DNA of 64,000 bases. Origin: a virus. The stretch lies in UHGV virus genome UHGV-0222911; one strand, written 5' to 3'. Positions 17,446-63,420 of the stretch are shown here, one piece after another (the first letter of the stretch is position 1; every line of letters starts with the position of its first letter). Below the pieces are notes generated by a model. It worked only from the letters and a program-made list of their open reading frames with translations. It was not told the DNA's origin and made no database searches. The position numbers were made by a program, and so were the translations under genes.

Positions 17446-17775
17446 TTAATCTGCCAGCCTTAAATTAAAATTAACACCAAATTTTTCGCATACTTCCAAC
17501 ATATACTCAAGGGAGACATTACCAGTGAGGTGGATTATGTTGGATACACGAGCCTGAGAGATACCACAAATTTTAGCAACTTGCTCTTGAGAAAGACCTC
17601 TGGATTTAATCTCTCTCTTAAAACGATGTGCAACGAAATCTCTCATTTCGTCTACATCCATTGGACAAATATAACTCTCCATTTCAGCCTCTCTGTCAGC
17701 CTCCCAATCATCTTGTGGAGCATAAGGGTCAAAAACCTCATTCATCTTTCTTCTTCCGTTTGCGTGAAGTGTCAA
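17446..17775 (-). CDS. helix-turn-helix DNA-binding protein candidate
   Basis: 109 aa; HTH-like segment GLSQEQVAKICGISQARVSNIIH. Confidence 0.4.
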   Translation of the reverse strand: MTLHANGRRKMNEVFDPYAPQDDWEADREAEMESYICPMDVDEMRDFVAHRFKREIKSRGLSQEQVAKICGISQARVSNIIHLTGNVSLEYMLEVCEKFGVNFNLRLAD

Positions 17776-25814: not shown

Positions 25815-26071
25815 TTTTACTCCCTCTAAAATCATTAACCTCATACATTACTGCAAAAAATTATAAAAAGCAAGTTGACAATGTACTTGACAAGGTGTTA
25901 ATCTTTGCGAAGTGGGTTTTTACTTAAAAGGTTACTTAACAGTTTAACTATACAGATACTTTAAAACTCTTAAAAGATTATTTAATAGCTTTTAAAAAGT
26001 TTTAAAGTATAACGTATAGAATACGTTAAGATAAAAGATTAAAACTTAATAGTTACTTAAAAGAGGCTTAC

Positions 26072-51413: not shown

Positions 51414-51429
51414 TAAGTAATTTCTTAAA

Positions 51430-51456
51430 AGGCTGCTTCGGCGGCCTTTTTTATTT
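51430..51456 (+). terminator. UUCG-tetraloop terminator
   Basis: GGCTGC TTCG GCGGCC followed by TTTTTTATTT. Confidence 0.55.
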
Positions 51457-51513
51457 GTATTTTGTGCAGAGTGCTGTATAATTGTTGTCACGATAAACTA
51501 AACAGGAGAACCA

Positions 51514-52062
51514 ATGAAGAAATTGATTCTAGGCTTGTGCTTAATGTTTACAGCACACTTATCTTATGCAGTTGACTGCCCAGAGCTATCAATTAGCCAA
51601 AAAGTTAACATGTTAAAAGCTTACCAGTATGGTGAGAATAATATGGGGAAAGGCTGGGGTATTACTCTAGCAGCTATAGCCTTACAAGAGTCAGAGTTAG
51701 GTCTGAAGGTAGAGAATAAAAAGACCCACGACTATGGTATTTTCCAGAATCACTTGAAGACTGTTGTAAAGCGTAACAAAATTAGTCCTAATGTGGCTAA
51801 AAAGAAACTCTTAAAAGATTTTGACTATGCAGCAAAAGAGACACATAAAGAGCTTGAGTTTTGGACTAAGGTACATGGTCACCCGAAGTCAAAGAAGACT
51901 TTACAAAAAGTTTTAGCATCATATAATGCTGGGTATTCGTACAAAATCCCTAAAGCTAAGAAATACTCTCAAGATGTCTATAACAATATGAAAGTTATCG
52001 CTCAATGTGAATTTGCAACAAACATTTCTAAGGTAAATCATGAAAAAATTAAGAAAGTCTGA
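51514..52062 (+). CDS. secreted lytic transglycosylase (SLT domain) - endolysin candidate
   Basis: 182 aa; signal peptide MKKLILGLCLMFTAHLSYA; SLT-like motifs AIALQESELGL...DYGIFQ and SYNAGYS. Confidence 0.5.
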   Translation: MKKLILGLCLMFTAHLSYAVDCPELSISQKVNMLKAYQYGENNMGKGWGITLAAIALQESELGLKVENKKTHDYGIFQNHLKTVVKRNKISPNVAKKKLLKDFDYAAKETHKELEFWTKVHGHPKSKKTLQKVLASYNAGYSYKIPKAKKYSQDVYNNMKVIAQCEFATNISKVNHEKIKKV

Positions 52063-53211: not shown

Positions 53212-53224
53212 GGTTAAGATACAG

Positions 53225-53246
53225 GCTCCTTCGGGAGCCTTTTTCA
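53225..53246 (+). terminator. UUCG-tetraloop terminator
   Basis: GGCTCC TTCG GGAGCC followed by TTTTTCATTT. Confidence 0.55.
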
Positions 53247-53263
53247 TTTCAGGAGATTGTTAA

Positions 53264-54366: not shown

Positions 54367-54571
54367 CAAAGATACTGGAGAAGTCATCTCTGCATGTGTT
54401 TTCGTGAGCGATGATACAGTGATACCATTTTACAATCTTGATGGTTTTAGTTTTACAGGGATAACTCCAGAAGAATACTTTGAAGACCTCACCTTTGCCA
54501 GAGTATCTATAGATACATTCTATAAATGTTTCTATGATGAAGGTAAAGAATTACGAGAAACTGAACTATAA
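54344..54571 (+). CDS. hypothetical protein
   Basis: 75 aa ORF. Confidence 0.35.
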   Translation: MKALEIVDKDTGEVISACVFVSDDTVIPFYNLDGFSFTGITPEEYFEDLTFARVSIDTFYKCFYDEGKELRETEL

Positions 54572-54582
54572 GGTGTATATTC

Positions 54583-54783
54583 ATGGCTGACTTCTGCAAA
54601 GACTGTTCTATAGAAATGTTTGGACGTGATACAGGTGACTTAAAAGGTCTTATCACTGAAGATGACTTTAAAGCTGGCTATGCAATGCCAGTAATCTGTG
54701 AAGGTTGTGGATGTATCTGGGTAGACCACGAAGGACAACGTGTAAAACCTTCAGAAGATAAAGAATCTTGGGAGAGATGTTAA
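54583..54783 (+). CDS. small Cys-containing protein
   Basis: 66 aa; CKDC...CEGCGC. Confidence 0.35.
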   Translation: MADFCKDCSIEMFGRDTGDLKGLITEDDFKAGYAMPVICEGCGCIWVDHEGQRVKPSEDKESWERC

Positions 54784-55569
54784 ATGGGTATTGTAAAAAT
54801 CATCAATGGCGATATCTTTGCCGCATTTGATAAAGGTAAGTTTGACATCATTGGTCACGGTTGCAACTGTATGAATTTAATGGGCGCAGGTATCGCTGAC
54901 AAGATTTCTAAACTTTACCCAAAAGCATATGAGACCGATACAGAGGTTTATCTATATGCAGGTGGCATAGGTCACAAACCTTGTGAAAATTTACTGGGTA
55001 ATTTCTCTGTAGCACGTTTAAAACAAGGTCGTATAGCTAACCTTTACACTCAGCTTAAGACTGGTAAAGATGCCCGATACAGTGCTTTAGAATCATCTTT
55101 GAAACAGCTTAACAGATACTGTGAAGTTAATCAGTTGAGGAAAGTTGGTTTACCTATGATTGGTGCAGGTATCGGTGGGTTGGACCCTCAAGCCGTCACA
55201 GTTATCATCAATCAGGTGATGAAGAGTGTAGATGTTTATCTATATGTCTATGAAGGAGAGATGTACCACAAGTTACGCTCAGGTTGGAAGAACTACTGTG
55301 AACCAGAATACTTTGCAGGTGTAGTTGTGTTCACGGATAATGCAGTTACCCTCTTCAGACGAAGAAAAGGTAAGATACATCAAAGTAACCCTCCGGTTGA
55401 GAAGATGTCTCTAAGTAACGCTCTAGTTACCCACCTGTCGAAGAGCAATCACAGGATAGCCGTAACATTTGGCAGTGATGCAGATACATATATTTATGCA
55501 AGAACTGATGAGGATATCGAGACGGTCTTCTCTTCACCGGAAGTTACCTTCTTAGACGCAAAGAACTAA
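54784..55569 (+). CDS. macro-domain (ADP-ribose binding/processing) protein candidate
   Basis: 261 aa; N-terminal IINGDIFAAF...DIIGHGCNCMNLMGAGIADKI resembles macro-domain core. Confidence 0.5.
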   Translation: MGIVKIINGDIFAAFDKGKFDIIGHGCNCMNLMGAGIADKISKLYPKAYETDTEVYLYAGGIGHKPCENLLGNFSVARLKQGRIANLYTQLKTGKDARYSALESSLKQLNRYCEVNQLRKVGLPMIGAGIGGLDPQAVTVIINQVMKSVDVYLYVYEGEMYHKLRSGWKNYCEPEYFAGVVVFTDNAVTLFRRRKGKIHQSNPPVEKMSLSNALVTHLSKSNHRIAVTFGSDADTYIYARTDEDIETVFSSPEVTFLDAKN

Positions 55570-55639
55570 GAAACTCTGTATAATATTCACAATAGACTAA
55601 GCCTTTCTTATCTGGTAAATTTTTCAGGTAAGGAGGGCT

Positions 55640-55823
55640 TTTTCATTTCAAGATTGTGCAGGTAGAGTTCTGTAGAGAAATCTGTAGAGAGAATTTTGAA
55701 CTCCAAAGAGAAAATTCATTTTCAAACTGTGCAGGTAATCTCCAAAGAGTTTTTTCATTTTCAAAACGTGCAGACCCCGCTCAGGTCGGGCAAGAAAAAT
55801 CATTTTAGAATTGTGCAGGTAGG
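55640..55823. repeat. four direct repeats of ~CATTTTCAAAnTGTGCAGGTA in ORF-free region
   Basis: Copies near 55640, 55714, 55752, 55798; followed by C-rich tract CCCCTCTCCCCCTCTTACTCCCCCTCTCCCC at ~55826-55876. Confidence 0.6.
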
Positions 55824-55997
55824 TTTTTATAGACAGCCAGCCCAGCCCCTCTCCCCCTCTTACTCCCCCTCTCCCCAAAAGTCAAGAGAAAAATTTGTAG
55901 CGGATTGAAAAATAATTCTTGATTGTAGTTCTGTTTTGTGGTAGTCGCGTGCGCCCGTTTCATTACAGTTTTTTCAAAAATATTTTTAAAATTTTTC

Positions 55998-56026
55998 TTG
56001 ACTCTTTGGATATGGTTATCTAATAT
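55998..56026 (+). promoter_or_regulatory. sigma70-like early promoter (module A1)
   Basis: TTGACT - 17 nt - TAATAT, then hairpin GGGGAGGGAATGACCTTCCCC at 56037-56057 and conserved leader to ATG 56093. Confidence 0.6.
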
Positions 56027-56092
56027 TTGCATCAACGGGGAGGGAATGACCTTCCCCACTAAACAACTAACCTTAAACTAGGAGATTCAAAA

Positions 56093-56473
56093 ATGGCTTA
56101 TCGTGCACCGAAATTCATCAACAAAGACAACTTTCGCAACGTACTGGAGAAGGCACTTGATGAAAAATTTAACGGTAAAATGATTGTTGTTCACGCATTC
56201 AATTTTAAGTATGATATCAACGGGAATAAAATCAACCATTACACGGCTACAATGCTAGATGGTACTCTTTCAAGTGAAAAATCCATTCTCCATGCACTGG
56301 CAGGACGTGGAAAGGTTTTAGTAAGATGTGATAAGCGACGTTATCAAGGTGGCGCATATGGTTATGATGATGCTGTTTACCATCTTGAAAATATGGGCTA
56401 TTCAGTGGAGAAAGCTGGAGCGCCTCAAATAATCGGTAGTGATGGTTATGTGACAATCTTCAAAATTAAATAA
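56093..56473 (+). CDS. early-region small protein (unknown)
   Basis: 126 aa; ATG 8 nt after GGAGA SD in conserved leader. Confidence 0.5.
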   Translation: MAYRAPKFINKDNFRNVLEKALDEKFNGKMIVVHAFNFKYDINGNKINHYTATMLDGTLSSEKSILHALAGRGKVLVRCDKRRYQGGAYGYDDAVYHLENMGYSVEKAGAPQIIGSDGYVTIFKIK

Positions 56474-56559
56474 AGTACTTTACAGGGGGCTTATAGTTCG
56501 ATAAAGTAAGCCCCAGATAAAGAGCTTTACCACTAAATCCTAAATTGGAGAACTTAAAA
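56471..56559 (+). promoter_or_regulatory. conserved intergenic module B1 (hairpin + shared leader)
   Basis: TAAAGTACTTTACA + hairpin GGGGCTTA/TAAGCCCC (56486-56514) + AGATAAAGAGCTTTACCACTAAATCCTAAATTGGAGA..ATG. Confidence 0.55.
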
Positions 56560-56850
56560 ATGGCTATTATCAAAAACGTTGTAATTCCTGCAAAAACTCG
56601 TGACGACGCTCGTATCATGGCGAAAAAGTTAGGCGGAAAAGTGGTTGACAACGGAAAACAATCCACTGTAAGATGGGGCGTGAAGACTGATAAGCAGTTG
56701 AAGTTAAAAAATTCACCAATAAACCTTTTTACATGTGTAAACACTATCGGGAAGGCAAATGTATACACGAAAAAGGCATATATTAGACGCGTAGCCTTAA
56801 CATCCCCCATTCGTACAATGAGAGGCCATGCAAAGCTGAAAATTAACTGA
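56560..56850 (+). CDS. early-region small protein (unknown)
   Basis: 96 aa from ATG placed by conserved leader (longest ORF starts 56545). Confidence 0.5.
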   Translation: MAIIKNVVIPAKTRDDARIMAKKLGGKVVDNGKQSTVRWGVKTDKQLKLKNSPINLFTCVNTIGKANVYTKKAYIRRVALTSPIRTMRGHAKLKIN

Positions 56851-56938
56851 TAAAGTACTTTACAGGGGGCTTAAAAGTTGGTATCTTAAGCCCCAGATAA
56901 AGAGCTTTACCACTAAATCCTAAACTGGAGATTCAAGA
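56851..56938 (+). promoter_or_regulatory. conserved intergenic module B2
   Basis: Same module; hairpin GGGGCTTAA/TTAAGCCCC at 56866-56894 with compensatory changes relative to B1. Confidence 0.55.
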
Positions 56939-57151
56939 ATGAACATTAATCAAAAACTGAAAACCGCCTCACAAGTCCTATTCACAGATGATGACTATTT
57001 CAATAAAGACCTTACAGGTTTGAAATCTCTCAAAGAGATTAAAGAGCGCATGAAAATTTATGGAAAACCTCGGTTAGTTGGTGTATTCTCTAACTGTTAT
57101 GTTTATCAGCTTAATGGTCATTACAATTTTACGATTACTATTTTATCCTAA
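56939..57151 (+). CDS. early-region small protein (unknown)
   Basis: 70 aa. Confidence 0.45.
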   Translation: MNINQKLKTASQVLFTDDDYFNKDLTGLKSLKEIKERMKIYGKPRLVGVFSNCYVYQLNGHYNFTITILS

Positions 57152-57166
57152 ACTGGAGATTCAAAA

Positions 57167-57463
57167 ATGAAATTATCAAATAAAGTCCGTGAAAACCTTA
57201 GCAAGTTACTCAACAAAATTGATTTCATTGAAACATCAAGAAATAGCCATGATGTTATGGAATGGTTACACGGCAAAATAAAAGGCCGTCGTGTAGTGAT
57301 TTGTCTATGGAATAGTTGCAGGGAGTATAAAAAACCTGTATTGCAAATTAATGTTTATGATGATACTTATAAAAGCCCTGTTAAGTCTGAAAGTGATTTA
57401 CTAGATTCTTATGAGATAACTGTAAATGGCAAAGTATCACGTAAAGAGGAAGCACTATGTTAA
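57167..57463 (+). CDS. early-region small protein (unknown)
   Basis: 98 aa; preceded by short form of conserved leader CCTAAACTGGAGATTCAAAAATG. Confidence 0.45.
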   Translation: MKLSNKVRENLSKLLNKIDFIETSRNSHDVMEWLHGKIKGRRVVICLWNSCREYKKPVLQINVYDDTYKSPVKSESDLLDSYEITVNGKVSRKEEALC

Positions 57464-57789
57464 TGATGGGTATCACTGCAATCATAGCCATTATGGCACT
57501 TTACAAGGCTTACAGCGCCTATAATCTGGCAAGTAAGGCAATCACGCAACAGGTTAATAATAACCTTGTAATGAGCTTTCTGGAGCGTTTAAGTGATGAA
57601 CAATTGAAACGGTTAGAAATGAGCTTCAGATTTCAATCGAGAACTTATCAAATCAGCGACATTTTCAAAGATGATTTTCAGCTAGTCGATGATTATAATT
57701 CTCTGATAAATGCTTTAAATATCAGTGACTTAAAAGACTATTACTCTGTAATTGTTCAAGAATTGAGCAAACGAAAACAAAACTGTTGA
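57457..57789 (+). CDS. early-region small membrane protein
   Basis: 110 aa; N-terminal TM (MGITAIIAIMALY); ATG overlaps previous stop. Confidence 0.4.
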   Translation: MLMMGITAIIAIMALYKAYSAYNLASKAITQQVNNNLVMSFLERLSDEQLKRLEMSFRFQSRTYQISDIFKDDFQLVDDYNSLINALNISDLKDYYSVIVQELSKRKQNC

Positions 57790-57814
57790 CACTGATTTTT
57801 AGATAGATTAAATT
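57786..57814 (+). promoter_or_regulatory. sigma70-like early promoter (module A2)
   Basis: TTGACA - 17 nt - TAAATT; hairpin 57825-57845; leader to ATG 57880. Confidence 0.6.
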
Positions 57815-57879
57815 ACACATCAACGGGGAGGGAATGAACTTCCCCACTAAATAAAGTCCTTAAACTAGGAGATTCGAAA

Positions 57880-58152
57880 ATGTATACTACTAACAACGGT
57901 CGTACTCTAAATGTAACTTTGCGCCACTATGTTGACGGTGTAATGCACTTTGAGGATTTACAGGCTGAACAACACATCTTAGATTGGCAAGTAGCAGGAC
58001 TCCAAAAAACTGCTACAGGATACGGGAAAAAGATTCCAACTAGCTGGAAAGTATACTACGAAGGACGTTTGCGCAGAATTTATCAGGATGTATGTAGCAA
58101 TAGCGCAACAAGTTACATCATGGTAAAAGGTAAAAAATTGCACTTAGTATAA
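57880..58152 (+). CDS. early-region small protein (unknown)
   Basis: 90 aa. Confidence 0.5.
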   Translation: MYTTNNGRTLNVTLRHYVDGVMHFEDLQAEQHILDWQVAGLQKTATGYGKKIPTSWKVYYEGRLRRIYQDVCSNSATSYIMVKGKKLHLV

Positions 58153-58237
58153 AGTACTTTACAAGGGGCTTATAGTTCGATAAAGTAAGCCCCAGATAAA
58201 GAGCTTTACCACTAAATCCTAAATTGGAGATTCAAAA
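58150..58237 (+). promoter_or_regulatory. conserved intergenic module B3
   Basis: Near-identical to B1; hairpin 58165-58193. Confidence 0.55.
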
Positions 58238-58642
58238 ATGGCTATTAATAATCGTGAGTTGTCAATCTTAAAAGCACGTTTGACCGTTAACCGGATTAAT
58301 GTTATCACGTCATCAGCACCAGATGAAACACTGCAAAACATTATTGGGAAGATTCAAAGTGTTATCTTAGATGTTGAAAGCGTAAAAAACTCATTGGCTG
58401 ACGTTGCAGCAGGTATCACGCTAGACGGTGCACAATATGAAATGGCTGACATGTTAGGCAAATCAAAGGTAATGAATAAAGAGCTTGATTTAAAAATGTT
58501 TCGTTTTGCCGTGAAAGTGTGGCTATCTGTCGAGTATGACGCAAATTTTGCAATTGCTGACTTTTTTGCAACATGGTTGCAACGTAATTTAACAAATCAT
58601 GATTTTCGTGATATCTGTGACGCAATTTACGCAGAACTCTAA
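58238..58642 (+). CDS. early-region small protein (unknown)
   Basis: 134 aa. Confidence 0.5.
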   Translation: MAINNRELSILKARLTVNRINVITSSAPDETLQNIIGKIQSVILDVESVKNSLADVAAGITLDGAQYEMADMLGKSKVMNKELDLKMFRFAVKVWLSVEYDANFAIADFFATWLQRNLTNHDFRDICDAIYAEL

Positions 58643-58649
58643 AAAACTG

Positions 58650-58678
58650 TTGACACTGATTTTTAGATAGATTAAATT
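58650..58678 (+). promoter_or_regulatory. sigma70-like early promoter (module A3)
   Basis: Identical to A2: TTGACA - 17 nt - TAAATT; hairpin 58689-58709. Confidence 0.6.
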
Positions 58679-58740
58679 ACTCATCAACGGGGAGGGAATG
58701 AACTTCCCCACTAAGTAAAATCCTAAACTGGAGATTCAAA

Positions 58741-58941
58741 ATGGCTATTATTAACGGCTTAACCATTGAAACAACACACATCAAAGACATCAAAGTTGGG
58801 GATGTAGTCCTTTCCCACGGCGTAGAAAAAACTGTCACTGCAAAGGATATCAAAGAGGATTCTTTCATGGGTAGAACTCTCTTTGGTGATTCTTATTGCT
58901 TAGGTTATCTTGCAGTTTTAAAAGTTGTCAAAATTAACTGA
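58741..58941 (+). CDS. early-region small protein (unknown)
   Basis: 66 aa. Confidence 0.45.
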   Translation: MAIINGLTIETTHIKDIKVGDVVLSHGVEKTVTAKDIKEDSFMGRTLFGDSYCLGYLAVLKVVKIN

Positions 58942-59029
58942 TAAAGTACTTTACAGGGGGCTTAAAAGTTGGTATCTTAAGCCCCAGATAAAGAACTTTA
59001 CTACTCAATCCTAAACTGGAGATTCAAAA
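58942..59029 (+). promoter_or_regulatory. conserved intergenic module B4
   Basis: Same as B2; hairpin 58957-58985. Confidence 0.55.
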
Positions 59030-59572
59030 ATGAAATGCTTTCACGGTACTACTCAAGAAAACTTTATCAACCTGATTAATAACGGTGATAAGCCATCAGG
59101 TGCATGGAATTGTTCGGATATGGACGGCAATTTTTACGTTTATCCAGAAAATAAAATCTATGGCGACGATGAGGAAGAGATAACATCTGAAGGCATTCAG
59201 CAAGCTTTAGGTAATGCCACTATTACCGCAGCGTTTCAGATGAAAACTCAAAATATTGTTATCTTGGAACTTGATATTCCAGAGGATGAGTTGAATGATG
59301 ATTATTCTTGTGATAATATGTCGAGTGTGGCAAGTTTTACAGAGTATTTTGATATAAGCTGGATTAAAAAGGTTTACATCACTGAATTTAATGCTATGTT
59401 TTCACCTTTTTGTCTTCCTTCACTGGATAACCCAAATTTGAACTATCTTGATGAGTCTCTGGAACTTCTCGCTAAAAGTGTTCAACAATCAGACAGTGTT
59501 CAGGTTTTTTGTGACATCATGGATACACTAACAGGAAACATCATAGAAAGTGATTTGAAGAGCTTTTTATAA
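59030..59572 (+). CDS. strongly acidic early protein (unknown)
   Basis: 180 aa, Asp/Glu-rich with few basic residues. Confidence 0.5.
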   Translation: MKCFHGTTQENFINLINNGDKPSGAWNCSDMDGNFYVYPENKIYGDDEEEITSEGIQQALGNATITAAFQMKTQNIVILELDIPEDELNDDYSCDNMSSVASFTEYFDISWIKKVYITEFNAMFSPFCLPSLDNPNLNYLDESLELLAKSVQQSDSVQVFCDIMDTLTGNIIESDLKSFL

Positions 59573-59604
59573 AAACCTATGCAATCACCTTATAAACACT
59601 GATT

Positions 59605-59625
59605 AGCCCCTCACAGGGGCTTTTA
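59605..59625 (+). terminator. hairpin + T-run
   Basis: AGCCCC tcaca GGGGCT followed by TTT. Confidence 0.45.
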
Positions 59626-59638
59626 GGAGGCTTTAATC

Positions 59639-59872
59639 ATGCTTACAACCGTTTATCTCATCCTTTCTATTTGTAATGGTCATTCATGCGATTTTAAAGG
59701 GCTTGAGGAGTTTACAGGGAGTAAAGAAAATGCCATTCAGGTCTGTCAGATAGCAAGACAAGACTATCCCGCCAGTGATGATATACAATGTTACTTTAAG
59801 ACAGAAGATAAAGACGGCATCTATTTTGACAGCGTAGACGGTCAATATGAAATCATCATTGAAAAAGACTAG
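59639..59872 (+). CDS. early-region small protein (unknown)
   Basis: 77 aa; SD GGAGG before ATG. Confidence 0.45.
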   Translation: MLTTVYLILSICNGHSCDFKGLEEFTGSKENAIQVCQIARQDYPASDDIQCYFKTEDKDGIYFDSVDGQYEIIIEKD

Positions 59873-59898
59873 ACAAGCTTGATAAAAGTCTGTAAATT
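59870..59898 (+). promoter_or_regulatory. sigma70-like early promoter (module A4)
   Basis: TAGACA - 17 nt - TAAATT; hairpin 59909-59929. Confidence 0.5.
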
Positions 59899-59963
59899 AC
59901 TAATCAACGGGGAGGGAATGGCCTTCCCCACTAAATAAAGTCCTTAAACTAGGAGATTCTAAA

Positions 59964-60305
59964 ATGGCTTATGTAACTGTAATTACCGATAAAGAGAATT
60001 CATCTTGGTCAACTCAGGTTAGTGATAAGATGTCACCTATGCAGTGCCTAAAATACTTTGAGCAGTGGAACAAAGGCGAAGATGTAAGCCCCTTTCAGGT
60101 AATGCAAATCATCCATACAGATAACGAAGGGAATAAAACGACACTGAATAGCGAGTACTACGCAAGCCGTTTTGAAACGAGAAGTAAAACAATGAAGATT
60201 TTACGTGAATCCGGCTATTCTCATATTGCCGCGCTAATCTGGGATGACCTGCTAAAAAGTCAGCGTATCAGCTATGTAAAACCTGAAAAAATATTTATCA
60301 GTTAA
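59964..60305 (+). CDS. early-region small protein (unknown)
   Basis: 113 aa. Confidence 0.5.
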   Translation: MAYVTVITDKENSSWSTQVSDKMSPMQCLKYFEQWNKGEDVSPFQVMQIIHTDNEGNKTTLNSEYYASRFETRSKTMKILRESGYSHIAALIWDDLLKSQRISYVKPEKIFIS

Positions 60306-60434
60306 TCAATAACTTACAAAAAACTTTTAAAAAGATGTTGACAATCCCTCTTGACATTGGTAACTTTGTTCGAGGGGGTTTATCTAAAAGGGATTAACTT
60401 AAAAGATTCTTTATAGATAAACTTAAAAAATTGC

Positions 60435-60463
60435 TTGCAATCAGATATCAAAACAAGTAAATT
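60435..60463 (+). promoter_or_regulatory. sigma70-like early promoter (module A5)
   Basis: TTGCAA - 17 nt - TAAATT; variant hairpin GGGAGG caataa CCTCCC at 60475-60492; two extra TTGACA at ~60345-60366. Confidence 0.5.
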
Positions 60464-60527
60464 ACTCATCAACGGGGAGGCAATAACCTCCCTACTAAGT
60501 AAAATCCTTAAACTAGGAGATTCAAAA

Positions 60528-61058
60528 ATGAACAAGTTCAAAGCTATCAACTATATTCGTTCAAATAATGTAATGTCTAAGCCTGTTAAAGATACCTATG
60601 AATTTCGTTGTAATGGGGTACACTTTGCAACCATTACCAAATCAGAAAACGGAGCTTATTACGTTCATCGTCGTAATGTTGCAACCGTTGTAGTCTCTCA
60701 CTTTATGCAAGCTGTTGCGGAACTTCTCCCGCTGTTTTTAGGTCTTTACTTAGATGAGTGTAAAAACGTTCACAGCCACGTTAAAAACCTTTTAAACAGT
60801 TATAAAATGGCTTATGAACGTTCTATTCATAATTTGAACAAGTTCTATAAAGCCCCTGAAAATACTGTGTCAATAGCTTATGACGTAAGCGGTGAAATGG
60901 TCAATCTCTCCAATGTAGAACAAATTAACCTTTATGATTTACGTCCTAACGGTTACGCTAAAACTCTCGGTGAAGGTTTAACGTTTAATATCAAGAACTT
61001 AGAAAAAACTTTAAAAGATATTGAAAAAGATATTGACGAGACAACCAAAAATCTGTAA
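60528..61058 (+). CDS. early-region protein (unknown)
   Basis: 176 aa from ATG placed by conserved leader (longest ORF starts 60435 within promoter). Confidence 0.5.
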   Translation: MNKFKAINYIRSNNVMSKPVKDTYEFRCNGVHFATITKSENGAYYVHRRNVATVVVSHFMQAVAELLPLFLGLYLDECKNVHSHVKNLLNSYKMAYERSIHNLNKFYKAPENTVSIAYDVSGEMVNLSNVEQINLYDLRPNGYAKTLGEGLTFNIKNLEKTLKDIEKDIDETTKNL

Positions 61059-61061
61059 ATT
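61033..61061 (+). promoter_or_regulatory. sigma70-like early promoter (module A6)
   Basis: TTGACG - 17 nt - TAAATT, inside 3' end of preceding CDS; hairpin 61072-61092. Confidence 0.5.
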
Positions 61062-61123
61062 GTCAATCAACGGGGAGGGAATGGCCTTCCCCACTAAGTA
61101 AAGTCCTAAACTGGAGATTCAAA

Positions 61124-61387
61124 ATGGAACACGTCGAACTGACCACACTTTTACAAATTGCAACCGACAAAGAGGATGTAGCACTATTCCACCGTATCGA
61201 AAGTGATTTGTTCAATGGTGAAATCATCAAAGAGTCTTACGAGGTTGTCGGATTCAAAGACGGTAAAGCATTCGGATTCTTTGACCTCGACAAAGGTAAC
61301 GCTATTACAAAGTACGATGTATTATCTTGTGAGATTCTGGCAAAATACAACGAAAAAAGACTTGCAACATACGCCAACATGCAGTAA
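61124..61387 (+). CDS. early-region small protein (unknown)
   Basis: 87 aa. Confidence 0.5.
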   Translation: MEHVELTTLLQIATDKEDVALFHRIESDLFNGEIIKESYEVVGFKDGKAFGFFDLDKGNAITKYDVLSCEILAKYNEKRLATYANMQ

Positions 61388-61391
61388 ATTA
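61362..61391 (+). promoter_or_regulatory. sigma70-like early promoter (module A7)
   Basis: TTGCAA - 18 nt - TAAATT; variant hairpin GGGAGG taatga CCTCCC at 61401-61418. Confidence 0.5.
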
Positions 61392-61452
61392 CTAATCAAC
61401 GGGAGGTAATGACCTCCCACTAAATAAAAACCTTAAACTAGGAGACTCTAAA

Positions 61453-61701
61453 ATGGCTACTATCCGCGCAACTGTTAATGCTTATGGCTGCTACACTCTG
61501 GATGTTAAATTTGATATTGGTGGAACTGATGAATGCTTTTCATTAGTGAAGACAGTTATCAAGCAAGTTATCCCAGATTATAACCCTACTGATGACTTCT
61601 GGAAAGACGCTGTAAAAGAGGCATTAAACGACGAGCATCACTATCATTACTGGGGTGATTTGATTGTCTCCCTGTACTACAGCAAACAAGGGTACAACTA
61701 A
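61453..61701 (+). CDS. early-region small protein (unknown)
   Basis: 82 aa; followed by two hairpins and a long T-run. Confidence 0.5.
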   Translation: MATIRATVNAYGCYTLDVKFDIGGTDECFSLVKTVIKQVIPDYNPTDDFWKDAVKEALNDEHHYHYWGDLIVSLYYSKQGYN

Positions 61702-61735
61702 TCGACGCAACGGGGCTAAATAGCCCCAGATACCT

Positions 61736-61769
61736 GAAAAGCTCCTTCTCATAGGGGCTTTTTTTTTTA
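61736..61769 (+). terminator. rho-independent terminator closing the early cluster
   Basis: AAAAGCTCC ttctcata GGGGCTTTT with 10-nt T-run. Confidence 0.6.
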
Positions 61770-61779
61770 CGTCTATGCA

Positions 61780-63420
61780 ATAGCCCCTATACAAGCCTTT
61801 CCCTTTCCTTTCCAGAATCTATCCCGTACCTTAAAAGCAATAACTCTATAGCTTACTCTATAGCCCCTTATCAAATCAACTTAAATAAAAGCCAATAACC
61901 CCAGAAAGGGGATGGCCTACTAATTGGTATTGTTACCAATCCCCTAAACGCTCTATAAAGCTCTATAACAGCCTTATCAACCTAACTTAAGGGATTGCAT
62001 TAACCCACTCTAAAAAGCCCTTTATAAAGCTTCCTATAGCCTTAAAAGAATCTTATAAGGGTGTAAGCTTTATCATCTCGTTAGTTATCTTGTGAATAAC
62101 TCAATAGCCCTTGATAGTCTCTAAAAAGTATGTTATAGGGGCTGTTAAGTTACTTTGAAGTTACGTAAAAGAGGCTATAAAGTTACGTAAACGCTAGCCC
62201 CCTTAACATTTTCTTAACAATTTCTTAACAATCCCTACATAGTTATGCTTTTAAGGCACTTGTTAGAGACTTGTTAGCCCCTTGTTAAATCTCTGTTAAG
62301 ACCACGTAAAAGCCTTGTAAGAGTCTTTGGCATAGCCTTTAAAGCTCCTATAAAGCCCTATAAAGAGGTGTCTGTATAGTTGGGGTGTAGTTACTAGGAA
62401 GAGACTTAAAAGAGCTTATAAGGGGCTATAGAGAGCTTTTAAGAGGTATGTTTAGAGAGTCACTAAAAGGGAAGGGAACAATAAGAAAAGAGTAGTGACC
62501 ATGTTAATAGCTTGTTAAAAAGATTAAACACTTGTTAGGAACTTGTTAATTATCTAATTGGTATTGTTACCAATCCCTAACAAAATAACTCTTTAAAATT
62601 AACTTGTTAGCTCTTGTTAGTCATCTGTTAAGATTCTGTAAAGTCTATGTATCAACTGTTAAGAAACTGTTACATCCTTGTTAGTTCTGTTAAGAATCTG
62701 TTAAGACCTTTGAAGAGTTGTTAAGAGGATGTAGTAGCTGTTAAGAGATTGTTAAGGATATTTTAAAATTTTGCAAAGTACTTGTAAGGGAGCTGTTAAG
62801 GGCTACCAAGCAGATATACATCTTCTACAGATATTTTTCAGTTCCTTCAAAGACCCTAAAAAATGACTTGACAGTCCTATTTTATAAAAATTTTAAAATT
62901 CTGAATAATTACCTAGACAGTCTTTTAAAAATACAGGCATAAACAGGCTTATAAGATACCTTGTTAGTACCGTGTTAGACCTTGTGAGATAAGGTCTGTA
63001 AAGATATTCCTGTTAAGTTTGTTAAAACAGTCTATATAGAGGCTTAGTATTTCCTAGTGAACACCTATAGAGAGTAACATAGCTAACCTAATGGGTTACT
63101 GTTAAGTAACACAGGTAACCTAGAGATTAAGAGGTGTATAGGAGCTTCTAAGAGGGTGTAGAGAGATGGTTAAGGTGATTGTATAGGTTGTTAAGAAGGC
63201 TTGTTAGAAGAGTGTTTAGAAGGGCTATACAGAGGGGCTATTAAGACCACTAGATAGATACTAAGATACTATATAGTACTATATAACTATATAGAGAGTA
63301 AGATTAAGAAGGTTGTTAAGAAGGATAGATATTTTATTCACATATGATGGTGACCCAGAGGTTGGGACAACCGATAAAATTTTATAAAAATTAAAAAGCC
63401 CCCAATTAAGGAGGCTCTTA
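61780..63420. repeat. ORF-free repeat-dense region (YTGTTAR and CTATAAAG short-repeat families, palindromes)
   Basis: No ORF of 60 aa or more on either strand; about 30 copies of CTGTTAAG/TTGTTAG-like words; CTATAAAG/CTATAG words at 61.84-62.45 kb; palindrome TTGGTATTGTTACCAA at ~61924 and ~62557. Confidence 0.7.
63393..63416 (-). terminator. terminator for minus-strand gene 63428..63985
   Basis: Minus strand AGCCTCC ttaatt GGGGGCT followed by TTTTT. Confidence 0.45.

What the first reader, a model, noticed from the sequence alone, without database searches (positions are those of the whole stretch)
55570..55997. ORF-free 430-bp region with four iteron-like repeats and a C-rich tract upstream of the early cluster
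Between the macro-domain gene and the first early promoter there are four direct repeats of about CATTTTCAAAnTGTGCAGGTA (near 55640, 55714, 55752, 55798; spacings 73, 39 and 45 bp), two copies of CTCCAAAGAG and of CTGTAGAGA, then a 50-nt tract CCCCTCTCCCCCTCTTACTCCCCCTCTCCCC and AT-rich DNA. Iterons plus AT-rich DNA is the classical architecture of a replication origin or a multi-site operator. The two ORFs the six-frame track places here are repeat artefacts.
Basis: seen in the sequence. Interest (0 to 1): 0.5.

Follow-up and report, generated by a model that had tools for sequence, protein, structure and literature searches.

The report
Conserved four-site DNA array, Felix-O1-like phages
A non-coding gap in a Felix O1-type phage carries four copies of an 18-base motif kept in the same place across the whole phage subfamily, so it is very probably a docking platform for a DNA-binding protein that acts on transcription at the edge of the early genes, although a role in starting DNA replication has not been excluded.

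Summary
The window is a Felixounavirus. Between the macro-domain gene's terminator and the first early promoter lie four same-strand copies of a bipartite motif, (A/T)5-TCATTT-N7-GTGCA, at 55643, 55716, 55755 and 55800. The exact motif occurs nowhere else in a complete 88.4-kb relative. The array sits at the same position in Felixounavirus, Suspvirus, Mooglevirus, Erwinia Kolesnikvirus and a more distant metagenomic phage, and its cores are better conserved than the spacers. It is not coding and not a structured RNA.

A fifth, near-exact copy lies 4.2 kb upstream. It abuts the rIIB terminator and overlaps the -35/spacer of a conserved sigma-70-like promoter, which is how an operator behaves.

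The "AT-rich DNA" is the UP element of promoter P1. The C-rich tract is the genome's only canonical G-quadruplex motif, but most Felixounavirus loci examined carry an unrelated cassette instead. Genome ends lie 6.3 kb away.

Best reading: a multi-site operator or boundary array for an unidentified regulator (about 0.4). An iteron-type origin is the main rival (about 0.2). None of the Felix O1-group papers found in the searchable literature describes it.

The parts
55599..55645 (+). Intrinsic terminator ending the long rightward operon (last gene is the macro-domain protein, 54784-55569). It is a 17-pair stem-loop plus T-tract, and the T-tract is also the A/T5 element of repeat R1.
   Evidence: scan. 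The 3' arm and T-tract are conserved in Felix, Moogle and Susp. A non-homologous terminator allele in the ev035/phiWec174 type keeps the same junction with R1.
55643..55660 (+). Repeat R1, TCATTT-CAAGATT-GTGCA.
55716..55733 (+). Repeat R2, TCATTT-TCAAACT-GTGCA, preceded by CTCCAAAGAG-AAAAT.
   Evidence: Missing in the ev035/phiWec174/L046/L080 lineage, which has 3 copies.
55755..55772 (+). Repeat R3, TCATTT-TCAAAAC-GTGCA, preceded by CTCCAAAGAG-TTTTT. Its 3' tail is GACCCC instead of GGTA.
55800..55817 (+). Repeat R4, TCATTT-TAGAATT-GTGCA, preceded by GGTCGGGCAAG-AAAAA.
   Evidence: The GGTC(G/T)GGCAAGAAAAATCATTTT unit is shared with the Erwinia phage array.
55846..55876 (-). C-rich tract. On the - strand it reads GGGGAGAGGGGGAGTAAGAGGGGGAGAGGGG, a canonical G-quadruplex motif. 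It belongs to a variable cassette (55826-55877).
   Evidence: It is the only G3+N1-7 x4 motif in the window and in the Pr103Blw genome. A G4-aware fold gives -25.3 against -9.3 kcal/mol. Nine of 13 distinct Felixounavirus loci carry an unrelated alternative cassette, whereas Moogle, Susp and Erwinia are C-rich. Several assemblies break here.
55878..55916 (.). Most conserved block of the gap (90% identity between Felix and Moogle). It is A-tract-rich DNA between two divergent promoter-like elements.
55857..55885 (-). P3, a leftward promoter-like site, TTGACT-17-TAAGAG. It reads TAGCCT in the alternative cassette. The positional counterpart in Erwinia phage is TTGACC-18-TATACT. It would transcribe the array antisense. 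Inferred, not shown.
   Evidence: The -10 lacks the canonical final T in the C-tract allele.
55919..55947 (+). P2, a rightward promoter-like site, TTGATT-17-TAGTCG, with a non-canonical -10.
   Evidence: Conserved in Felix, Susp and Moogle, and absent from the Erwinia phage.
55971..56026 (+). A/T-rich UP element (55971-55997) plus promoter P1, TTGACT-17-TAATAT, the first strong early promoter.
   Evidence: Conserved to the Erwinia phage, where it is TTGACT-17-TATATT.
56037..56059 (+). 5'-UTR hairpin GGGGAGGGAATGACCTTCCCC of the first early gene (56093-56473). The same leader recurs after other early promoters. It falls within wV8's annotated repeat DR_6 (about 56031-56083 in window coordinates).
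51427..51482 (+). Outside the finding. This segment holds the rIIB terminator (51427-51450), a fifth motif copy TTATTT-GTATTTT-GTGCA(G) (51451-51468), and the -10 TATAAT (51477-51482) of a promoter for an SLT-like gene (51514-52062). The motif covers the -35/spacer.
   Evidence: TTATTT, GTGCAG and TATAAT are invariant in Felix, Moogle and Susp while both 7-nt spacers vary. Terminator and promoter features are annotated under the match in the AYO145A record, though their exact positions were not checked.

Best explanation
The four repeats are a cis-acting DNA element. They form an array of same-orientation, asymmetric, bipartite binding sites ((A/T)5-TCATTT-N7-GTGCA) for one sequence-specific DNA-binding protein. 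That protein has not been identified and is probably phage-encoded.

The array sits at a transcriptional boundary. R1 shares its T-run with the terminator that ends the long rightward replication/metabolism/rII/macro operon. Fifty to 180 bp beyond R4 begins the promoter block (P3 leftward, P2 and P1 rightward) that opens the roughly 6-kb cluster of small early genes next to the right terminal repeat. The same protein would also bind a single site laid over the -35/spacer of the promoter just after the rIIB terminator.

The proposed mechanism is as follows. Once the regulator is made, it occupies the single site to switch that promoter. It also fills the four-site array, which acts as a multi-site operator or insulator. 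The array would control what crosses the boundary, either terminator read-through into the early cluster or firing of the adjacent divergent promoters.

What is shown: the sites, their uniqueness, their orientation, their conservation, their non-coding and non-structured nature, and the promoter overlap of the fifth site. What is inferred: protein binding, the identity of the protein, and the direction of the regulatory effect.

Probabilities: about 0.8 that this is a DNA-level protein-binding array, and about 0.4 that its job is transcriptional (operator or boundary).
For: - The motif is far beyond chance and confined to two spots. Four exact copies lie in 175 bp and none elsewhere in 88.4 kb. 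The relaxed ATTT-N7-GTGCA occurs only 5 times, all on the + strand and all right after terminators.
- It is deeply conserved. The array lies directly after the macro-gene terminator in Felixounavirus, Suspvirus, Mooglevirus and Kolesnikvirus, and after the macro gene in a distant 88-kb IMG/VR phage where no terminator was evident. Identity between Felix and Moogle is 82-85% in the cores and 45-82% in the spacers. The adjacent macro protein is only 63-65% identical.
- The conservation pattern fits protein-DNA recognition. Two invariant blocks (TCATTT and GTGCA) are separated by 7 variable bases. The flanking 5-mer is either an A-run or a T-run; the 4 positions before its final T are A in 36-37 and T in 39-40 of 76 distinct copies. 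That is equivalent for DNA shape but not for RNA.
- It is not coding. It is not a structured RNA, with z = +1.09 and +0.45 and no Rfam match.
- The fifth site overlaps a conserved sigma-70-like promoter. TTATTT, GTGCAG and TATAAT are invariant in three genera while the spacers vary.
- In two non-homologous terminator alleles, the junction between the terminator T-tract and R1 is preserved.
- The Felix O1 genome paper states that temporal control of transcription in this phage is unknown (PMC3185647). A regulator of this kind is therefore expected but not yet described.
Against: - No binding protein is identified. The ten neighbouring genes have no Pfam DNA-binding domain, and the only HTH protein noticed (XRE type, 17446-17745, - strand) would be expected to prefer palindromes.
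- The array sites do not overlap P1, P2 or P3. R4 ends 40 bp from the P3 -10 hexamer, 100 bp from the P2 -35 and 180 bp from the P1 -35.
- The sites are asymmetric, unlike classical dimeric operators.
- Spacing is neither regular nor helically phased across genera.
- P2 and P3 have non-canonical -10 hexamers ending in G, so their activity is doubtful.
- The fifth site is absent after rIIB in the Erwinia phage.
- A single 1-mismatch match somewhere in the genome is expected by chance. Its significance rests on its position and its conservation.
- No expression or binding data were found for this phage group.
Confidence: 0.4

Rival explanations
1. Iteron-type replication origin. An initiator would bind the four repeats. 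Nearby promoters (P3, P2, P1), A-tract bends and the R-loop/G4-prone G-rich non-template strand of a leftward transcript would help open the DNA or prime synthesis, as at T4 oriE or ColE1.
For: - There are four same-orientation asymmetric repeats in non-coding DNA, unique to this locus and conserved subfamily-wide.
- Promoter-like sites flank the array, including a leftward one pointing into it.
- The only G4 motif of the genome is adjacent.
- An 88% A+T 40-mer lies within 140 bp.
- No origin has been reported for this phage group in the literature searched.
Against: - Spacing is 37-75 bp and irregular, not the roughly 22-bp phased spacing of known iterons.
- The AT-rich DNA is accounted for as the P1 UP element and is not exceptional. 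The least stable 100 bp of the window lies at 25962-26061, between the DNA polymerase gene and the replication module, where GC skew also flips.
- No initiator-like gene is adjacent.
- From my own knowledge, phages that carry their own T7-like primase-helicase and PolA usually start replication from promoters rather than iterons.
- The G4 tract is replaced in most Felixounavirus loci.
- A fifth site sits on an unrelated promoter.
- There is no GC-skew inflection at the array.
Confidence: 0.2
2. RNA-level element. A roughly 250-nt non-coding RNA would be transcribed leftward from P3 through the array to the bidirectional terminator hairpin. It would carry four linear copies of UGCAC-N7-AAAUGA and act as a sponge or platform for an RNA-binding factor.
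For: - A leftward promoter-like site is positionally conserved, and it is strong in the Erwinia phage (TTGACC-18-TATACT).
- The region is less structured than shuffled controls, so linear motifs would be accessible.
Against: - The P3 -10 is TAAGAG, with no final T, in the C-tract lineages.
- The A5/T5 dimorphism next to the core is neutral for DNA shape but not for RNA.
- The fifth site lies in a promoter on the other transcriptional sense.
- There is no Rfam family and no covarying structure.
- The terminator tail is poor in the leftward direction.
Confidence: 0.08
3. DNA-traffic signal. The array, with the G4-prone tract, would mark the inner edge of the right-end early segment. It would act as a pause or stop for genome entry, analogous to the T5 injection-stop region, or as a polar barrier to forks or polymerases heading for the terminal repeat.
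For: - In the Pr103Blw record, which is laid out with its 581-bp terminal repeats at both ends, the array lies 6.7-6.9 kb (7.8%) from the right end. Only small early genes separate it from the repeat.
- T5 stops after 7.9% at a conserved non-coding repeat region (10.1101/866236).
- All sites have one polarity.
Against: - There are no consensus DnaA boxes, large inverted repeats or palindromes like those of the T5 iss.
- Two-step entry has not been reported for Felix O1-like phages in the literature I found.
- Which end enters first is unknown.
- The fifth site, on a promoter, is not explained.
- The 7.8% figure may be coincidence.
Confidence: 0.07
4. The region encodes a small protein (wV8 gp13 on the + strand, or the 51-76 aa - strand ORF ...YLHNSKMIFLARP...LKMKKLFGDYLHSLKMNFLFG...), and the repeats are peptide repeats.
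For: - ORFs of 50-76 aa span the array on both strands.
- The - strand ORF is open in all Felixounavirus loci examined.
- The ORFs are annotated as genes in some records.
Against: - Frame and strand are not conserved between genera. Spacings of 41 and 37 bp break the frame, and indels of -2, +4, +2 and -14 occur.
- Variable sites fall 20/22/28 by codon position, and synonymous-only columns number 7 of 70, no more than in the other five frames.
- Annotators disagree on the strand.
Confidence: 0.02
5. Functionless relic of local duplications of the terminator tail.
For: The left half of the motif (TTTTTCATTT) resembles the tails of other terminators in this genome, for example 53223-53250.
Against: - Ten of 17 core positions are invariant across 76 distinct copies from five lineages, while the spacers diverge.
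- Copy number and order are maintained.
- GTGCA is kept at a fixed 7-nt distance.
Confidence: 0.03

Closest known systems
Iterons of theta-type origins (lambda ori, plasmids such as P1/F/R6K) and the iteron cluster of T4 oriE. This comparison rests on my own knowledge, not on a test here.
   Same: Several direct, same-orientation repeats of about 18-22 bp lie in non-coding DNA next to A/T-rich DNA and promoters, and are expected to bind one protein cooperatively.
   Different: Spacing is 37-75 bp and unphased, not about 22 bp. There is no adjacent initiator gene. The A/T-rich DNA is a promoter UP element. An extra site sits on an unrelated promoter. Origin activity is untested.
Asymmetric operators bound by monomeric or two-module regulators, such as the phage P1 C1 17-bp operators scattered over the genome, or the MarA/SoxS/Rob 'marbox' (GCAC-N7-AAA). 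This comparison rests on my own knowledge.
   Same: The site is non-palindromic and bipartite, with two short recognition blocks about one helical turn apart. The sites have a defined orientation, and at least one overlaps a core promoter.
   Different: The sequence does not match either consensus. On the reverse strand the motif reads TGCAC-N7-AAATGA, against the marbox YAAAY register. Four of the five sites are clustered away from promoters. No regulator is known.
Injection-stop (iss) repeat region of phage T5 (Davison 2020, bioRxiv 10.1101/866236).
   Same: It is a conserved untranslated repeat region at the inner edge of the early segment, about 8% from a genome end. It is better conserved than the neighbouring early genes.
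   Different: The T5 region is 1.2 kb of nested inverted repeats and palindromes with paired DnaA boxes, and it lies inside a 10-kb terminal repeat. Here there are only direct repeats, no DnaA boxes, a 0.6-kb terminal repeat 6.3 kb away, and no evidence of two-step entry.
Canonical G-quadruplex / i-motif tracts near origins and R-loop start sites, such as mitochondrial CSBII and the ColE1 RNA II G-run. This comparison rests on my own knowledge.
   Same: Four G4-5 runs with loops of 3, 7 and 3 nt lie on one strand. The tract is unique in the genome and lies on the non-template strand of a possible leftward transcript.
   Different: The tract is not universally conserved, since an alternative cassette replaces it in many Felixounavirus genomes. 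Structure formation and any function are untested.

Membership tests
Iteron-type replication origin | Three or more direct repeats of about 17-22 bp, in the same orientation, in non-coding DNA | tested here: met
   Four 18-nt cores on the + strand. Non-coding.
Iteron-type replication origin | Regular, helically phased spacing of the repeats (about 21-23 bp or a fixed multiple) | tested here: not met
   Spacing is 73/39/45 here, 75/41/45 in Moogle and 37/37/39 in the Erwinia phage.
Iteron-type replication origin | Adjacent A/T-rich DNA-unwinding element | tested here: inconclusive
   55958-55997 is 88% A+T and is about the tenth least stable 40-mer in the window. However, it lies 140 bp from R4 and is the UP element of P1. 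At the 100-bp scale the region ranks 5098 of 63900, and the least stable 100-mer is at 25962.
Iteron-type replication origin | Cognate initiator gene next to, or containing, the iterons | tested here: not met
   Ten flanking genes show only a Macro domain and a sub-threshold BRCT hit in Pfam, and all but the macro 'phosphatase' family are of unknown function in PHROGs.
Iteron-type replication origin | Initiation of replication at the site | not testable with these tools
   This needs marker-frequency analysis or 2D gels.
Transcription-factor operator set | A site overlaps core promoter elements at one or more loci | tested here: met
   The fifth site (51451-51468) covers the -35/spacer of TTGTAT-16-TATAAT and is conserved in three genera. 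Terminator and promoter features are annotated under the match in the AYO145A record.
Transcription-factor operator set | The clustered sites themselves overlap promoters | tested here: not met
   R1-R4 lie 40-350 bp from the P3, P2 and P1 hexamers. No -10 element lies at a fixed distance from the cores.
Transcription-factor operator set | Dyad symmetry, as in classical dimeric repressor operators | tested here: not met
   The core is asymmetric: TCATTT against GTGCA.
Transcription-factor operator set | An identified cognate regulator that binds the sites | not testable with these tools
   There is no candidate beyond an XRE-type HTH protein at 17446-17745. A single-sequence AF2 model of the macro protein was useless, with pLDDT 34.
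Canonical G-quadruplex motif | Four runs of 3 or more G separated by loops of 1-7 nt | tested here: met
   The - strand at 55876-55846 is the only instance in the window and in the Pr103Blw genome.
Canonical G-quadruplex motif | Conservation in relatives, or demonstrated folding | tested here: inconclusive
   The motif is present in four Felixounavirus loci, in Susp and in Moogle. It is near-canonical in the Erwinia phage and is replaced in 9 of 13 Felixounavirus loci. Folding is only predicted.
T5-type injection-stop region | Paired DnaA boxes and large inverted repeats or palindromes | tested here: not met
   There is no TTWTNCACA in 55570-55997, and only short inverted repeats typical of chance.
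T5-type injection-stop region | Location at the inner boundary of the first-entering roughly 8% of the genome, with demonstrated two-step transfer | not testable with these tools
   The position is 7.8% from the right end. The end that enters first and stepwise entry are both unknown.
Protein-coding gene (wV8 gp13 and similar) | Reading frame conserved across relatives, with a codon-position bias in substitutions | tested here: not met
Structured non-coding RNA | Match to a known family, or folding energy better than shuffles | tested here: not met
   Rfam returned no hit within the gap; the only hit in the scanned 54500-57000 was a chance-level miRNA match at 56839-56921, E = 0.26. z-scores are +1.09 (+ strand) and +0.45 (- strand).
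Genome terminus / terminal repeat | Identity with the experimentally determined terminal repeat of a relative | tested here: not met
   The UAB_Phi87 608-bp terminal repeat (PMC4837284, Fig. S1) maps to window 62205-62809, not to this region. The Pr103Blw record confirms this.

The most novel reading that the evidence does not exclude
The array and the adjoining G4-prone tract would form a polar cis-acting signal marking the inner edge of the right-terminal 7.8% of the genome, which holds only small early genes. It would act as a pause or stop site for genome entry, or for forks and polymerases running toward the terminal repeat. That would make Felix O1-type phages a second, unrelated case of staged genome delivery, after T5.
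Probability: 0.07. Interest if true: 0.75.

Novelty: new member of a known kind. Interest (0 to 1): 0.45.

Why it matters
Felix O1 and its relatives are classical diagnostic phages and are now widely used in therapy. How they schedule transcription and where they start replication are still unknown; the Felix O1 genome paper says so explicitly.

A motif that occurs five times in the genome, always right after a terminator, once on a promoter and four times at the gateway to the early genes, gives a concrete handle. It can be used as bait to fish out the regulator or initiator. It is also a defined target for mutagenesis.

For phage engineering, it marks a conserved cis-element that should not be disrupted blindly.

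The neighbouring G4-prone tract also matters for sequencing quality control, because it seems to break assemblies and seed artefacts.

Tried and rejected
- Genome terminus. Several assemblies start or end in this gap (TH10, three IMG/VR contigs), so I tested whether it is a physical end. The experimentally determined terminal repeat of UAB_Phi87 maps 6.3 kb downstream, and the Pr103Blw record agrees. Rejected.
- Insertion in the repeats. The roughly 480-bp 'insertion' in KhF3-type genomes turned out to be extra early-gene cassettes downstream of P1.
- Known RNA family or structured RNA. None found.
- Host-factor sites. No DnaA or IHF consensus lies in the gap. By eye, using consensus sequences recalled from memory, there is no convincing match to Fis, CRP, sigma-54, sigma-E or marbox.
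- A phage-specific promoter class. The motif is not found before other genes. The promoter-like reading of the minus strand in the Erwinia array (TTGCCA-17-TAAAAT) is not kept in genera with longer spacing.
- Wider distribution. A two-site pattern scan of IMG/VR found only Ounavirinae-type phages, plus coding Ser/Ala repeats in tail-fibre-like genes. The first attempt used the wrong spacer length and found nothing. The same pattern in 185,579 bacterial and archaeal genomes gave no hit whose record title names an enterobacterium.
- Candidate binding protein. The neighbours have no DNA-binding domain. The C-terminal 95 aa of the macro protein has no PDB relative, and a large-database search found only one fragment. 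Single-sequence AlphaFold failed.
- Literature. No description of these repeats, of an origin, or of transcript maps was found for the group. No supplementary files of the Bas63 knockout screen are held as text.
Full report
**What the window is.** BLAST places the window in Felixounavirus (Felix O1/wV8-like myoviruses). The best match is Escherichia phage vB_EcoM-Pr103Blw at 95%, and 240 records match. The finding lies in the 523-bp gap between the macro-domain 'phosphatase' gene (54784-55569, Pfam Macro) and the first gene of a run of small early genes (56093-56473).

**Check of the observation.** The repeats exist at the stated places.
- After aligning 76 distinct copies from relatives, the motif is (A/T)4-T-CATTT-N7-GTGCA, followed by GGTA in the Felix, Moogle and Susp types, or by TAG in the Erwinia type.
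- Ten of 17 core positions are invariant. The seven bases between the two blocks vary.
- The 18-nt cores TCATTT-N7-GTGCA start at 55643, 55716, 55755 and 55800, with spacing 73, 39 and 45 bp.
- With up to 3 mismatches to the 22-mer consensus, the window has 3 matches where 0.01 is expected.
- In the complete 88,421-bp Pr103Blw genome the exact core occurs four times, all in the array.
- The short CTCCAAAGAG and CTGTAGAGA repeats are real and belong to the longer repeat unit or its spacers.
- The C-rich string is 31 nt (55846-55876). Read on the minus strand it is a canonical G-quadruplex motif, the only one in the window and in the Pr103Blw genome.

**Anatomy of the gap.** From left to right:
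- A 17-pair intrinsic terminator (55599-55640) with a T-tract. The T-tract is at the same time the A/T run of R1.
- R1 to R4.
- A 52-nt variable cassette (55826-55877).
- A block at 55878-55916 that is the best conserved part of the whole gap, at 90% identity between Felix and Moogle.
- Two weak promoter-like sites that diverge from this block: P3 leftward (TTGACT-17-TAAGAG) and P2 rightward (TTGATT-17-TAGTCG). Both have an unusual -10 ending in G.
- The A/T-rich stretch 55971-55997 followed by promoter P1 (TTGACT-17-TAATAT).
- A leader hairpin, and then the gene.

P1 and its A/T-rich upstream element are conserved out to the Erwinia phages. As a duplex it ranks only about tenth among the least stable 40-mers of the window, and at the 100-bp scale the region is unremarkable.

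**Conservation.**
- The 428-bp gap matches 289 phage records. Identity is 84-97% in Felixounavirus and 74-77% in Mooglevirus. In the Erwinia Kolesnikvirus phages only the stretch holding repeats R2-R4 still aligns.
- Reading the sequences shows four copies in the same orientation, directly after the macro-gene terminator, in all these genera.
- One Felixounavirus lineage (VpaE1_ev035, phiWec174, two IMG/VR contigs) has three copies and a different terminator allele, yet keeps the fusion of the terminator T-tract with R1.
- A distant 88-kb IMG/VR phage, whose macro region is only about 46-50% identical in translated alignment, has five copies after its macro gene.
- Between Felix and Moogle types the cores are 82-85% identical and the spacers 45-82%. 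The macro protein itself is 63-65% identical. The cores are therefore under purifying selection.

**Not coding, not a structured RNA.**
- ORFs of 50-84 aa cover the gap on both strands, because the repeat lacks stop codons in several frames.
- Annotators have called different ORFs on different strands.
- Between genera the repeat spacing changes by amounts that are not multiples of three, and indels of -2, +4, +2 and -14 occur.
- Within 21 distinct Felix/Susp-type arrays, variable sites fall 20/22/28 by codon position. Only 7 of 70 variable columns are purely synonymous in the best frame, no better than in the other five frames.
- Rfam finds nothing within the gap. Both strands fold no better than shuffles, with z = +1.09 and +0.45.
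- The five bases before each core are either an A-run or a T-run, in nearly equal numbers. That swap preserves DNA shape (an A-tract) but would not be neutral in RNA, which points to recognition at the DNA level. This last step is an inference.

**A fifth site.** Relaxing the pattern to ATTT-N7-GTGCA gives exactly five hits in the whole Pr103Blw genome, against 1.5 expected. All five are on the + strand.
- The extra hit is at window 51451-51468: TTATTT-GTATTTT-GTGCA(G).
- It starts in the T-tract of the rIIB terminator (51427-51450), the same arrangement as R1.
- It covers the -35/spacer of a sigma-70-like promoter (TTGTAT-16-TATAAT) that precedes a 182-aa secreted, SLT-like protein gene.
- In Felixounavirus, Mooglevirus and Suspvirus the TTATTT, GTGCAG and TATAAT elements are invariant, while both 7-nt spacers differ.
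- Terminator and promoter features are annotated under this match in one relative.
- A binding site laid over a promoter is what an operator looks like. This is the main reason I rank a transcriptional role above an origin.
- The site is absent after rIIB in the Erwinia phage.

**Where the genome ends are.**
- Several assemblies break inside this gap. The TH10 record starts and ends in it. Two IMG/VR contigs end at CTCTTACTCC, one of them running into a Nextera adapter. A third ends 30 nt further on.
- I therefore tested whether it is a terminus. It is not.
- The terminal repeat of UAB_Phi87, determined by Bal31 digestion and run-off sequencing (PMC4837284), maps to window 62205-62809.
- The Pr103Blw record, laid out with its 581-bp repeats at both ends (PMC8303462), puts the array at 81552-81726. 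That is 6.7-6.9 kb, or 7.8%, from the right end, with thirteen small genes in between.
- The breaks cluster in the G4-prone tract.
- VpaE1_ev035 even carries an adapter-like palindrome (CTGTCTCTAGAGACAG) inside it.
- One LF110P2 variant has a deletion running from the tract to a downstream leader.
- I read this as difficult, recombination-prone DNA, not as an end.

**The C-rich tract.** It is C-rich in Moogle, Susp and Erwinia phages. In 9 of 13 distinct Felixounavirus loci it is replaced by an unrelated cassette. It cannot be an indispensable partner of the repeats.

**Function.** What is shown is a unique, oriented, deeply conserved, non-coding, non-structured set of five bipartite sites, each cluster abutting a terminator, with one site on a promoter. 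What is inferred is that one sequence-specific DNA-binding protein recognises them.
- My best reading (about 0.4) is a regulator with one simple operator at the post-rIIB promoter and a four-site array at the boundary between the long rightward operon and the early-gene promoter block. The array would act as a multi-site operator or insulator.
- Weak points: no regulator is identified; the array sites do not overlap P1, P2 or P3; and the sites are asymmetric.
- The main rival (about 0.2) is an iteron-type origin. It fits the direct repeats, flanking promoters, A-tracts and the R-loop/G4-prone strand asymmetry. It is weakened by the irregular spacing, the lack of an initiator gene, the replaceable C-tract and the promoter-bound fifth site. 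A more conventional candidate also exists: the very A/T-rich divergent gap between the DNA polymerase gene and the next replication-module gene (25845-26071), where GC skew flips.
- Smaller rivals are a leftward non-coding RNA (0.08), a DNA-entry or polar-barrier signal by analogy with the T5 injection-stop region (0.07), a small protein (0.02), and a relic (0.03).

**Comparison with what is known.**
- The element works like an operator or iteron array. It cannot be filed as a member of the iteron-origin family, because two defining features were tested and not met (phased spacing and an adjacent initiator).
- It cannot be filed as a classical operator set either, because it lacks dyad symmetry and the clustered sites do not overlap promoters.
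- It is not a T5-type iss.
- The Felix O1, wV8 and UAB_Phi87 papers do not mention it, and no paper in the library links Felix O1 with iterons or an origin.
- The wV8 record annotates other direct repeats (DR_1 to DR_9) but not these.
- I rate it a new member of a known kind: an undescribed cis-acting repeat array.

**Verdict.** Interest is moderate (0.45). This is a clean, conserved, experimentally tractable handle on the unknown regulation, or possibly replication, of a much-used phage group, but its function is not yet established.

Noticed in passing
window 51427-51482: A fifth copy of the repeat motif sits right after the rIIB terminator. It overlaps the -35/spacer of a conserved promoter (TTGTAT-16-TATAAT) for an SLT-like secreted protein gene (51514-52062). 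It is conserved in Felixounavirus, Mooglevirus and Suspvirus, but not in Erwinia phage phiEa104.
   Followed up: yes
window 55846-55876 and relatives (L003/L004, L016, L017, L030, L037, L039): Assemblies tend to break or go wrong in the C-rich/G4 tract. The TH10 record is opened there. Two IMG/VR contigs end at CTCTTACTCC, one continuing into a Nextera adapter. VpaE1_ev035 has an adapter-like palindrome CTGTCTCTAGAGACAG inserted. An LF110P2 variant has a deletion starting in the tract. This suggests a coverage hole or structure-prone DNA.
   Followed up: partly
window 62205-62809: [quoted passage not shown] It is packed with CTTGTTA(A/G)/TGTTAAG units, often at 11-bp spacing, with inverted arrays (CTTAACA...) at its left edge and TGTTAAG at its right edge. 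It looks like a dense protein-binding array, possibly for packaging or replication.
   Followed up: partly
window 25845-26071: This is the divergent gap between the DNA polymerase gene (23115-25844, - strand) and the next + strand gene. It contains the least stable 100 bp of the window (83% A+T, TTAAAA-rich), tandem TTGACA boxes, and the point where GC skew flips. It is a more conventional candidate for a replication origin.
   Followed up: partly
L063 (IMGVR_UViG_3300045988_063805, contig positions 1-1100): A distant 88-kb relative has five motif copies in two clusters after its macro gene. They are followed by a 140-bp run of TTAACA repeats resembling the terminal-repeat edge of Felix-type phages, and then by early-type promoters.
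   Followed up: partly
window 56093-62200; L002 2795-3252: The early cluster is modular. Relatives differ by whole small-gene cassettes inserted after P1 (about 480 bp in KhF3, ekra and LF82P3). The same promoter-plus-leader units (for example TTGACA-17-TAAATT followed by ACGGGGAGGGAATGAAC) recur at 57786 and 58650.
   Followed up: partly
L006 2004-2069 (Erwinia phage phiEa104): In the Erwinia array the minus strand of two repeat units scores as a good sigma-70 promoter (TTGCCA-17-TAAAAT, 10 of 12). This is not kept in genera with longer repeat spacing.
   Followed up: partly
window 17446-17745 (- strand): A small protein of about 99 aa, in the 109-aa ORF 17446-17775, carries an XRE/Cro-type helix-turn-helix (…LSQEQVAKICGISQARVSNII…). 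It is annotated 'putative transcriptional regulatory protein' in Pr103Blw and is the only obvious phage-encoded sequence-specific DNA binder noticed.
   Followed up: no
window 55276-55566 (macro protein residues 165-261): The C-terminal 95 aa or so of the macro-domain protein have no Pfam or PDB match. Distant macro homologues (L035, L036) lack this part and also lack the array. A search of the 5.8-billion-protein database returned only one 54-aa fragment, which is odd given the hundreds of phage homologues.
   Followed up: partly
window 53223-53262: Another + strand terminator has the tail TTTTTCATTTCAGGA, identical over 16 nt to R1 of many relatives. It continues into a ribosome-binding site instead of GTGCA. 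The left half of the motif thus resembles a common terminator tail in this genome.
   Followed up: partly
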